DNA of 64,000 nucleotides from positions 17,422,001 to 17,486,000 of the forward strand of contig OX597840.1 in assembly GCA_951406725.2 (NCBI GenBank), in the 5' to 3' direction. The DNA is from Octopus vulgaris. Lineage: Eukaryota. Shown here one piece after another: positions 57,060 through 57,506 of this stretch. Within the stretch, counting starts at the first letter, position 1; each line of letters begins with the position of its first letter. The position numbers and the translations under genes are program-made. Below the pieces are notes generated by a model. The model was not told the origin of the DNA. It ran no database searches and was given only the letters and a program-made list of their open reading frames with translations.

Positions 57060-57506
57060 GGGACTGTCACGTTATGTTGACTTTATACAACCACTCCATC
57101 GCTCCACCACCGCTCATGTCTCTCTGAAACATTTAGAAATTCAATATTTCTGATTACGGTGACCAGTGAATAGATTTCACTGTAAATATATATATTTGCG
57201 ATGGCTTGGCAAGTATCACCGCTAGCGGGGACTCGCTACCCTGGACTGATGATGGGCAAGACCCAGAAACATGCATGTCTTCATGTTGCTAGTCCTAGCT
57301 GGTAGGGGTGCTTGCCTCCCTTTTGCAAATATAAGGACACAGGAAATGTGTCAAAGCCGACAGGAAGCGTCAATGTTTCCTAGGGCTAAATAGCAGTGGT
57401 GTGGTTCCCTTTACGGGACTGTCATGTTGTGTTGACAGTATACAACCACTATATCTCCCTACCACCGCTCATGTCTCTCTGAGACATTTAGAAATTCAAT
57501 ATTTCT
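57060..57506 (+). mobile_element. Retrozyme-like element: 355-bp monomer plus 91-bp terminal redundancy, in (TA)n
   Basis: Direct repeats 57061-57151 and 57416-57506; central intact hammerhead motif. Confidence 0.72.
57242..57283 (+). ncRNA. Type I hammerhead ribozyme, intact core
   Basis: tgga-CTGATGA(57246-57252)-tggg-caaga-ccca-GAAAC-ATGCAT-GTC(57277-57279)-ttca. Confidence 0.85.

What the first reader, a model, noticed from the sequence alone, without database searches (positions are those of the whole stretch)
57060..57506. Circularly permuted 1.25-mer element with an intact hammerhead ribozyme: candidate retrozyme or integrated circular RNA
Seen: a non-coding unit in (TA)n whose first 91 bp (57061-57151) recur 355 bp later (57416-57506). 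Between them is a canonical type I hammerhead (CTGATGA, stem II tggg/ccca, GAAAC, palindromic stem III ACATGCATGT, GTC site). Stem I extends into a long irregular helix: atatttgcga 57192/ttgcaaatat 57323, ggcaagtat 57208/gtgcttgcc 57308, gggact 57228/agtcct 57291. Further hairpins fill the monomer. Known: metazoan non-LTR retrozymes are short non-autonomous repeats with type I hammerheads that yield small circular RNAs, and Penelope-like elements carry hammerheads in their terminal repeats. Inference: terminal redundancy with the ribozyme in the middle is what reverse transcription of a ~355-nt circle past its start point would leave, possibly using a Penelope-like RT.
Basis: partly seen in the sequence, partly recalled or inferred. 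Interest (0 to 1): 0.85.

Follow-up and report, generated by a model that had tools for sequence, protein, structure and literature searches.

The report
Ribozyme repeat targeted by a LINE
This is one aged copy of a large family of 355-base repeats carrying a conserved, predicted self-cutting RNA motif, likely spread from RNA (probably a circle) by Penelope-type enzymes; a separate group of retrotransposons inserts at one spot in these repeats and at the start of U2 small-RNA genes, likely because both share a promoter type.

Summary
The 91-bp repeat (89% identical, period 355) and the type I hammerhead are at the stated coordinates. The unit is a dispersed family (2,639 candidates) among several sister families. 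Its ribozyme covaries across families (C3-G8 99, U3-A8 18 of 129 motifs; palindromic stem III).

Copies are not freely permuted. 100 of 119 segments end at two fixed points about 55 nt apart, 5' ends vary, and tail-out inverted arms pair one long with one short end (20 of 22). This is the Penelope-like signature. A young sister family forms dispersed multimers of up to about 10 units with locus-private variants in every unit, which fits a monomer (circle) template. No circle or cleavage was shown. The window copy has one ribozyme, a private stem I mismatch, and is likely a dead end.

New here: L1/Tx1-type LINEs insert with 14-20-bp duplications just upstream of the ribozyme core (21 of 30 ORF2 loci). 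The same LINE subfamily inserts at +1 of U2 genes (3 of 30). A motif found at -57 to -59 of U1/U2 genes sits at a like distance in the units.

Verdict: a known kind (non-LTR retrozyme) with a LINE parasite I did not find described.

The parts
57061..57415 (+). One full 355-bp unit (unit positions q1-q355; q = window minus 57060)
   Evidence: Family of 2,639 candidates, 40 scored, near-full-length matches 87-93% identical, on many chromosomes; fold z -6.96
57416..57506 (+). Second pass q1-q91, ending at the family's 'long' 3' end (inferred RT start)
   Evidence: 89% to first pass; 44 of 119 census segments end at q90-99
57091..57105 (+). AC-rich 'short' 3' end point of the family (q31-45; again at 57446-57460), inferred second RT start
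   Evidence: 56 of 119 segments end at q30-49; paired with the long end in 20 of 22 two-arm loci with both ends canonical
57162..57168 (+). ACCAGTG, candidate snRNA-type proximal sequence element, 84 nt upstream of the core; overlaps a hairpin 57164-57182
   Evidence: ATCAGTG at -57 to -59 in 6 of 6 U1 genes; ATCAGT(G/C) at -59 in 3 U2 flanks (2 independent); motif at -81 to -90 from the core in 64 of 168 cores. Function inferred
57183..57197 (+). TA-rich box between the candidate element and the inferred start site
   Evidence: Sequence; present in related units; role untested
57210..57245 (+). Empty LINE target zone and inferred transcription start region (5' strand of extended stem I)
   Evidence: In other copies LINE poly(A) signals lie 20-39 nt before the core (56 distinct junctions, controls 1 and 1); 14-20-bp duplications
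57240..57285 (+). Type I hammerhead: stem I 57240-45/57280-85, core 57246-52 and 57266-70, stem II 57253-65, palindromic stem III 57269-78, predicted cut after 57279
   Evidence: Sequence; conservation in 35 segments; covariation in 129 motifs, 0 in reversed control
57192..57332 (+). Long irregular helix extending stem I
   Evidence: MFE and centroid folds
56877..57059 (.). (TA)n target tract, left flank
   Evidence: Tandem Repeats Finder; family 3' ends are followed by 83% A+T, TATATA in 46 of 102
57507..57530 (.). TA-rich right flank
   Evidence: Sequence

Best explanation
The window holds an aged, 5'-truncated 1.26-unit copy of a non-coding hammerhead repeat family (non-LTR retrozyme kind) that was likely inserted into a TA tract by a Penelope-type reverse transcriptase starting at one of two fixed internal sites on the RNA, probably a monomer circle. 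Inferred cycle: a U1/U2-type promoter inside each unit (motif near q102, start near q150-160) drives transcription of tandem copies; ribozymes, likely working as dimers through the palindromic stem III, cut out monomers; a host ligase would close them; the Penelope-type enzyme cuts TA-rich DNA and primes from both ends (starts near q39 and q94), giving tail-out arms with a variable number of passes. The window copy has one ribozyme and so could not release a monomer. Shown from sequence: L1/Tx1-type LINEs, and ORF1-only derivatives, sit at one site 20-39 nt upstream of the core with short duplications, and one subfamily also sits at +1 of U2 genes. Inferred: they exploit the unit's promoter, and the LINE+unit RNA is sometimes recopied by the Penelope-type enzyme.
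For: Shown. Fixed 3' ends in 100 of 119 segments, 5' starts spread over the whole unit. Tail-out two-arm structure in 34 of 80 loci; 20 of 22 with two canonical ends are long+short, none long+long. This matches the PLE inverted arm and one-sided tail (passages of 10.1101/2021.04.23.441226) and two internal RT starts (PMC11167929). Repeats within a locus share subfamily alleles: 52 of 535 diagnostic sites differ against 209 expected (direct), 80 of 762 against 316 (inverted). Sister family A (362 bp): dispersed multimers up to about 10 units, 99-100% identical, same two-end design; locus-private variants in every covered unit in L387 (5/5), L385, L306, L307 (3/3 each). Ribozyme covariation. LINE: APE-RT-zf ORF2 and CCHC ORF1; 21 of 30 ORF2 loci end 30-38 nt before a core, 2 before the next LINE, 3 before full-length U2; duplications on both sides in unit and U2 insertions; U2-inserted copies nest among unit-inserted ones and carry a 14-nt head matching a unit's target sequence at 13 positions.
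Against: No coding Penelope element with a terminal repeat homologous to the unit was found in 60 GIY-YIG loci, so the mobiliser is unidentified. The window family is mostly shorter than one unit: 13 of 119 segments exceed 355 nt, none reaches 700; the longest seen is about 749 nt (L028). In family A, 11 locus-variant pairs are in only some units and 90 in one unit, against 21 in all; L391 shares a variant only in the two terminal units, which suits a multi-unit template. The window's own two repeats differ at 2 of 9 diagnostic sites. 5' ends do not pile up at the inferred start site (11 of 74 at q150-159, 4 of them LINE junctions). U2 and one unit class also share TT(T/C)ATCG at the cut, so plain endonuclease preference could explain the shared targeting. 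Related LINE families target non-ribozyme repeats. In Xenopus only 1 of 9 predicted retrozyme dimers cleaved in vitro (10.64898/2026.07.22.740005).
Confidence: 0.72

Rival explanations
1. Same family and same Penelope-type insertion, but the template is an uncleaved linear transcript of tandem copies; no circle is involved and the ribozyme serves RNA processing or stability only.
For: PLE RT used uncleaved RNA and started internally in vitro (PMC11167929). Inverted arms that contain LINE 3' end plus unit (L075, L231) and copies truncated inside the LINE with no upstream unit (L229, L248) show that longer, probably linear RNAs are copied. Variants shared by some units only.
Against: Locus-private variants present in all units and both arms need a one-unit bottleneck at some step; the core and dimer palindrome stay under covariation across families; circles are documented for mussel, coral and axolotl repeats of this kind (PMC7229834).
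Confidence: 0.2
2. The unit is the detached terminal repeat (pLTR) or 3' end of a coding Penelope-like element, left by 5' truncation.
For: Ends, tail and inversions are PLE-like; Xenopus retrozymes resemble pLTRs; a coding PLE family in this genome carries a hammerhead-like motif with a palindromic stem III.
Against: No GIY-YIG match in 80 census loci; upstream of the ribozyme the sequence returns to the unit itself or to a LINE 3' end; no extended similarity to 60 GIY-YIG loci (L365 has a family-A-like copy nearby on the other strand).
Confidence: 0.05
3. The unit is the terminal repeat of the L1/Tx1-type LINE, or a SINE moved by it.
For: Many LINE copies are flanked by unit sequence on both sides.
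Against: The LINE also inserts alone with 15-16-bp duplications (L224, L234, L240) and into U2 genes; a 5'-truncated copy sits in a unit with a duplication (L241); plain unit junctions lie next to LINE-filled ones; unit ends lack the LINE's poly(A) signal.
Confidence: 0.02
4. The 91-bp repeat is a one-off local duplication in a decayed repeat.
For: The window pair is as divergent (11%) as unrelated copies (10.5%) and differs at 2 diagnostic sites.
Against: The second pass stops at the family's standard long end, as in 44 of 119 segments; the same wrap recurs in many loci.
Confidence: 0.01

Closest known systems
Metazoan non-LTR retrozymes (PMC7229834; mussel 350-390 bp, coral, axolotl; newt satellite 2)
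   Same: Short non-coding self-paired unit with a type I hammerhead, tandem or partial tandem copies, co-occurring with Penelope-like elements.
   Different: Here ends are mapped: two fixed 3' ends, tail-out arms, TA targets. The window family is mostly sub-monomer and dispersed. That paper's main text has no 'octopus' or 'cephalopod'. Circles and cleavage were shown there, not here.
Penelope-like elements (Poseidon of Anolis, PMC11167929; structures in 10.1101/2021.04.23.441226) and their non-autonomous derivatives (10.64898/2026.07.22.740005)
   Same: Two internal RT starts giving a one-sided tail, inverted 5'-truncated arm, AT-rich targets, hammerhead with palindromic stem III.
   Different: No ORF; tail about 55-60 nt rather than 30-40; no homologous coding partner found in 60 loci; multimers up to about 10 units in the sister family.
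Target-specific Tx1-clade LINEs (Tx1L, Keno, Kibi/Koshi, Tx1-Mar, SINEU; passages of PMC4494074)
   Same: APE-RT LINE with target preference, tandem copies sandwiching a duplication, snRNA-derived 5' heads, targets in other repeats or U2.
   Different: Target is a hammerhead repeat; one subfamily hits both these units and U2 at +1 (Keno's site inside U2 is recalled, not checked); composites are recopied with Penelope-type ends. Clade placement was not tested against named Tx1 references.
Newt satellite 2 snRNA-type promoter (Coats 1994; seen only as a sentence and reference in PMC2220036)
   Same: Hammerhead repeat with an internal snRNA-type Pol II promoter.
   Different: Here the promoter is inferred from a motif shared with the genome's own U1/U2 genes and from LINE 5' heads; not assayed.

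Membership tests
Non-LTR retrozyme | Type I hammerhead with conserved core in the unit | tested here: met
   core columns nearly invariant in 35 segments; C3-G8 99 and U3-A8 18 of 129 motifs; 0 control hits
Non-LTR retrozyme | Short (150-450 bp), non-coding, highly self-paired unit | tested here: met
   355 bp; no internal ATG frame over 46 aa; z -6.96
Non-LTR retrozyme | Tandem copies with at least two ribozymes (the 'active' criterion of 10.64898/2026.07.22.740005) | tested here: inconclusive
   Not met by the window copy (one core); rare in its family (L021, L028); met by sister family A
Non-LTR retrozyme | Self-cleavage in vitro | not testable with these tools
   Needs transcription assay; window copy predicted impaired as monomer
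Non-LTR retrozyme | Accumulates as circular RNA | not testable with these tools
   Only assembled contigs of guessed-RNA runs were available
Non-autonomous Penelope-like derivative | Two fixed 3' ends (tail on one side) and inverted 5'-truncated arm | tested here: met
   100 of 119 ends; 34 of 80 two-arm loci; 20 of 22 long+short
Non-autonomous Penelope-like derivative | AT-rich or microsatellite target | tested here: met
   83% A+T after 102 ends, TATATA in 46; family A flanks
Non-autonomous Penelope-like derivative | Sequence homology to the pLTR of a coding PLE | tested here: inconclusive
   None in 60 loci from two searches, a small sample of over 6,000 candidates each
Tx1/L1-type target-specific LINE (the insert) | ORF1 with zinc knuckle; ORF2 APE-RT-zf; poly(A) signal end; 14-20-bp duplication; 5' truncation | tested here: met
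   (best solved relative human L1 ORF2p, E 1.6e-66)
Tx1/L1-type target-specific LINE (the insert) | Target preference (over 20% of flanks one repeat type, criterion of PMC4494074) | tested here: met
   21 of 30 ORF2 loci; 15 of 30 ORF1-only ends by strict pattern, 24 of 30 with variants judged by eye
Tx1/L1-type target-specific LINE (the insert) | RT phylogeny within the Tx1 clade | not tested
   No named Tx1 reference came back; the tree holds only this genome's copies
snRNA-type promoter | Proximal element at the U1/U2 distance from the start | tested here: inconclusive
   Motif and spacing match (-57 to -59 in U1/U2; -50 to -60 from the LINE site in units); absent from 5 of 5 U6 hits; binding and start site not assayed

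The most novel reading that the evidence does not exclude
Hammerhead retro-circles in this genome carry a captured U1/U2-type promoter, and a LINE lineage is steered to the transcription start of that promoter class (by the promoter complex or by a co-evolving endonuclease). It thereby borrows the promoter, leaves the ribozyme intact through its duplication, and rides a second, Penelope-type reverse transcriptase: a three-tier parasite system.
Probability: 0.3. Interest if true: 0.82.

Novelty: new variant of a known kind. Interest (0 to 1): 0.62.

Why it matters
How animal retrozymes move has been argued from co-occurrence and pLTR likeness. Here the insertion footprints themselves (two RT starts, tail-out arms, multimers with one-unit bottlenecks) point to Penelope-type chemistry, and a near-identical young family offers a direct test of circle-templated insertion. 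The LINE link adds a new target class for site-specific LINEs and, through its 5' heads, marks the likely start site and promoter of the repeat. A LINE that finds snRNA-type start sites would be of interest for targeting mechanisms. The window copy itself is an ordinary aged member.

Tried and rejected
Rfam: no hammerhead model matched.

RNA: one search gave no RNA holder listed. laid contigs of 4 runs guessed to be RNA (of 24 listed): family-like contigs cover the stretch, and two 'go back 350', but that junction also exists in genomic copies, so it says nothing on circles or expression. RNA for sister family A remains unexamined.

'Captured cargo / Terminon-like polycistron' reading of the 1.65-kb ORF1 body: dropped after off-target copies with duplications, a truncated copy inside a unit, and full LINEs at the same site.

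The GIY-YIG frame next to L065/L094 is a separate young PLE family with no pLTR similarity beyond a few bases. L209/L251 (ORF1-like followed by a PLE-type RT) was seen once and not pursued.

Composite circle (unit+LINE) as template: not supported, since plain junctions lie beside LINE-filled ones.

Pile-up of 5' ends at the inferred start: inconclusive (11 of 85 segments could not be refined).

U6-type promoter: motif absent in 5 of 5 U6 hits, some likely pseudogenes. Targets of other LINE subfamilies: no Rfam match in 8 loci.

Earlier findings of the scan: three look-ups returned nothing. Coats 1994 was not held.

Literature searches listed no paper on LINEs targeting hammerhead repeats ('Tx1' + 'hammerhead' gave 2 unrelated papers). 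Subscription papers, Repbase/Dfam entries and supplements (of PMC7229834, PMC13282606 and the bioRxiv preprints) were not seen and may hold this family.

Full report
1. Observation. The element spans 57061-57506 between TA tracts. The first 91 bp recur 355 bp later at 89% identity. Rfam has no matching model. Against 35 aligned segments the core is conserved, but the window copy has a private change that breaks stem I pair 5 and a minority letter at the base of stem II. Its monomer hammerhead fold is the least favourable of 13 copies scored. The palindromic stem III gives a -14.7 kcal/mol intermolecular duplex, as expected for dimer-acting ribozymes (review passages, PMC6765202).

2. The family. 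The unit has 2,639 candidate sites, 40 scored, on many chromosomes. An exact 34-nt core pattern gives 110 matches, control 0. I fetched 80 loci around the 100 listed matches; this census is conditioned on an intact core. Of 119 segments of 60 nt or more, 56 end at q30-49 and 44 at q90-99, while 5' starts cover the whole unit; 13 exceed one unit and the longest is 492 nt. Among the 30 best hits one reaches about 749 nt. Copies run through the predicted cut at q219, so the template was circular or uncleaved. Thirty-four of 80 loci have two arms pointing outward; of the 22 with both ends canonical, 20 pair a long with a short end, 2 are short+short and none long+long. This is the inverted arm and one-sided tail described for Penelope-like elements (passages) and explained by two internal RT starts (PMC11167929, results read). 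Repeats within a locus share subfamily alleles far more than random pairs; the window pair is one of the weaker cases.

3. Selection on the ribozyme. A loose pattern with helix filters found 129 distinct motifs in 1.95 Mb of fetched loci and none in reversed sequence. Positions 3 and 8, left free, are C-G in 99, U-A in 18 and mismatched or wobble in 12. Stem III is self-complementary in at least ten different sequences. Counts are sequences, not independent events, and 63 belong to the window's own type.

4. A young sister family. Family A (362 bp; only 66% like the window unit over q50-135) has 1,124 candidates. In 31 fetched loci, chosen from the best hits and with one overlap (L305/L381), arms hold from under one to about 10 units, end at two points 60 nt apart, and lie in TA tracts. 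Several variants seen in one locus are present in all its units and both arms; 21 locus-variant pairs are in all units, 11 in some, 90 in one. A one-unit bottleneck followed by repeated copying is what a circle would give; re-use of a linear template or a uniform donor array is not excluded.

5. The LINE. Two census loci carried a 1.65-kb insert between unit repeats. It is a family (383 candidates) encoding an ORF1-like protein with a zinc knuckle and ending just after a poly(A) signal. Sixty-one exact junctions put that signal 12-42 nt before a core. Of the first 30 of 72 exact 3' ends, 15 are followed by a strict hammerhead and 9 more by variant or decayed units judged by eye; three off-target copies have 15-16-bp duplications and 5' truncation, and one truncated copy sits inside a unit with a duplication. 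A third census locus had an RT frame at the same site. Its 30 closest relatives are L1/Tx1-type LINEs: 21 end 30-38 nt before a core, 1 before a decayed core, 2 before the next LINE in an array, 3 before full-length U2, 3 elsewhere. The query came from a unit-associated copy, so this fraction describes that lineage only; related families target other repeats. Ten 5' flanks were fetched: 4 show the U2 duplication, 5 the unit duplication, 1 held no LINE end. U2-inserted copies nest among unit-inserted copies and carry a 14-nt head that matches a unit's target site, which suggests LINE RNA begins there. LINEs fill single sites beside plain junctions, so they insert after the repeat has integrated. 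Some composites were later recopied with Penelope-type ends.

6. Promoter. ATCAGTG lies at -57 to -59 in 6 of 6 fetched U1 genes and ATCAGT(G/C) at -59 in the U2 flanks. A like motif (pattern widened to admit family A's variant) lies 81-90 nt upstream of the core in 64 of 168 cores, against about 0.2 per kb background; that is 50-60 nt before the LINE site. Newt satellite 2 has an snRNA-type promoter (cited in PMC2220036). The inference is a U1/U2-type promoter inside the unit. Against it: the motif is short, overlaps a hairpin, and no start was mapped.

7. Mechanism. Shown: anatomy, covariation, end points, two-arm structure, LINE sites and duplications. Inferred: promoter, cleavage, circularisation, identity of the RT. 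The window copy has the candidate promoter and one ribozyme and ends before a second, so it could not release a monomer. No coding Penelope element with a homologous terminal repeat was found in 60 loci, although such elements are abundant.

8. Known and new. The class is known: non-LTR retrozymes (PMC7229834; results and discussion read), proposed as Penelope derivatives (10.64898/2026.07.22.740005; introduction to discussion read). Target-specific Tx1 LINEs are known (passages of PMC4494074). An octopus repeat annotation lists Penelope and L1-Tx1 families, and its main text has no 'ribozyme' or 'retrozyme' (passages). I found no paper on LINEs targeting hammerhead repeats in searches; curated repeat libraries and supplements were not seen.

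9. Verdict. Observation confirmed; interpretation partly supported. The window copy is an aged member of a known kind. The Penelope-type footprints, the young multimeric sister family and the LINE that shares a target between these repeats and U2 start sites make it a new variant. Interest 0.62.

Noticed in passing
L397-L400, L271, L275, L284 (G000 C3:20.81-20.83 Mb; C23:43.31 Mb): Near-identical full LINEs inserted at +1 of U2 snRNA genes with a ~17-bp duplication, leaving a full U2 downstream but separated from its upstream region.
   Followed up: yes
L377-L396: Young 362-bp sister family with a U3-A8 core, 1,124 candidates, dispersed multimers at 99-100% identity: the best material for experiments.
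   Followed up: yes
L060, 5' end of the ORF1-only element: An 18-nt U1 snRNA 5' end (same as the U1 genes) is fused in front of the element.
   Followed up: partly
L068/L081-L082, L069/L083: Strings of two or three different ORF1-only elements, each ending in a poly(A) signal and separated by target duplications.
   Followed up: partly
L301-L304, L311-L314: Related LINE families in 5.28-kb tandem arrays target other, unidentified repeats; no Rfam match.
   Followed up: partly
L354-L376 (GIY-YIG loci): A coding Penelope-like family carries a hammerhead-like motif with U3-A8 and a palindromic stem III downstream of its endonuclease.
   Followed up: no
L251:6183-8746: An ORF1-like frame runs straight into a Penelope-type RT frame on the same strand; probably a nested insertion.
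   Followed up: no
window 57593-57712: A long inverted repeat just right of the element, between TA tracts; unrelated to the unit by BLAST.
   Followed up: no
window 57840-57990: A short interspersed repeat with many copies in fetched loci (SINE-like by recall).
   Followed up: no
window 24585-24688: Degenerate (TAACCC)n tract, an interstitial telomere-like repeat.
   Followed up: no
whole genome: 2.8 Gb, microsatellite-rich; nearest named hit of the LINE protein is from Argonauta hians at 63%, so likely an octopod (inference).
   Followed up: no
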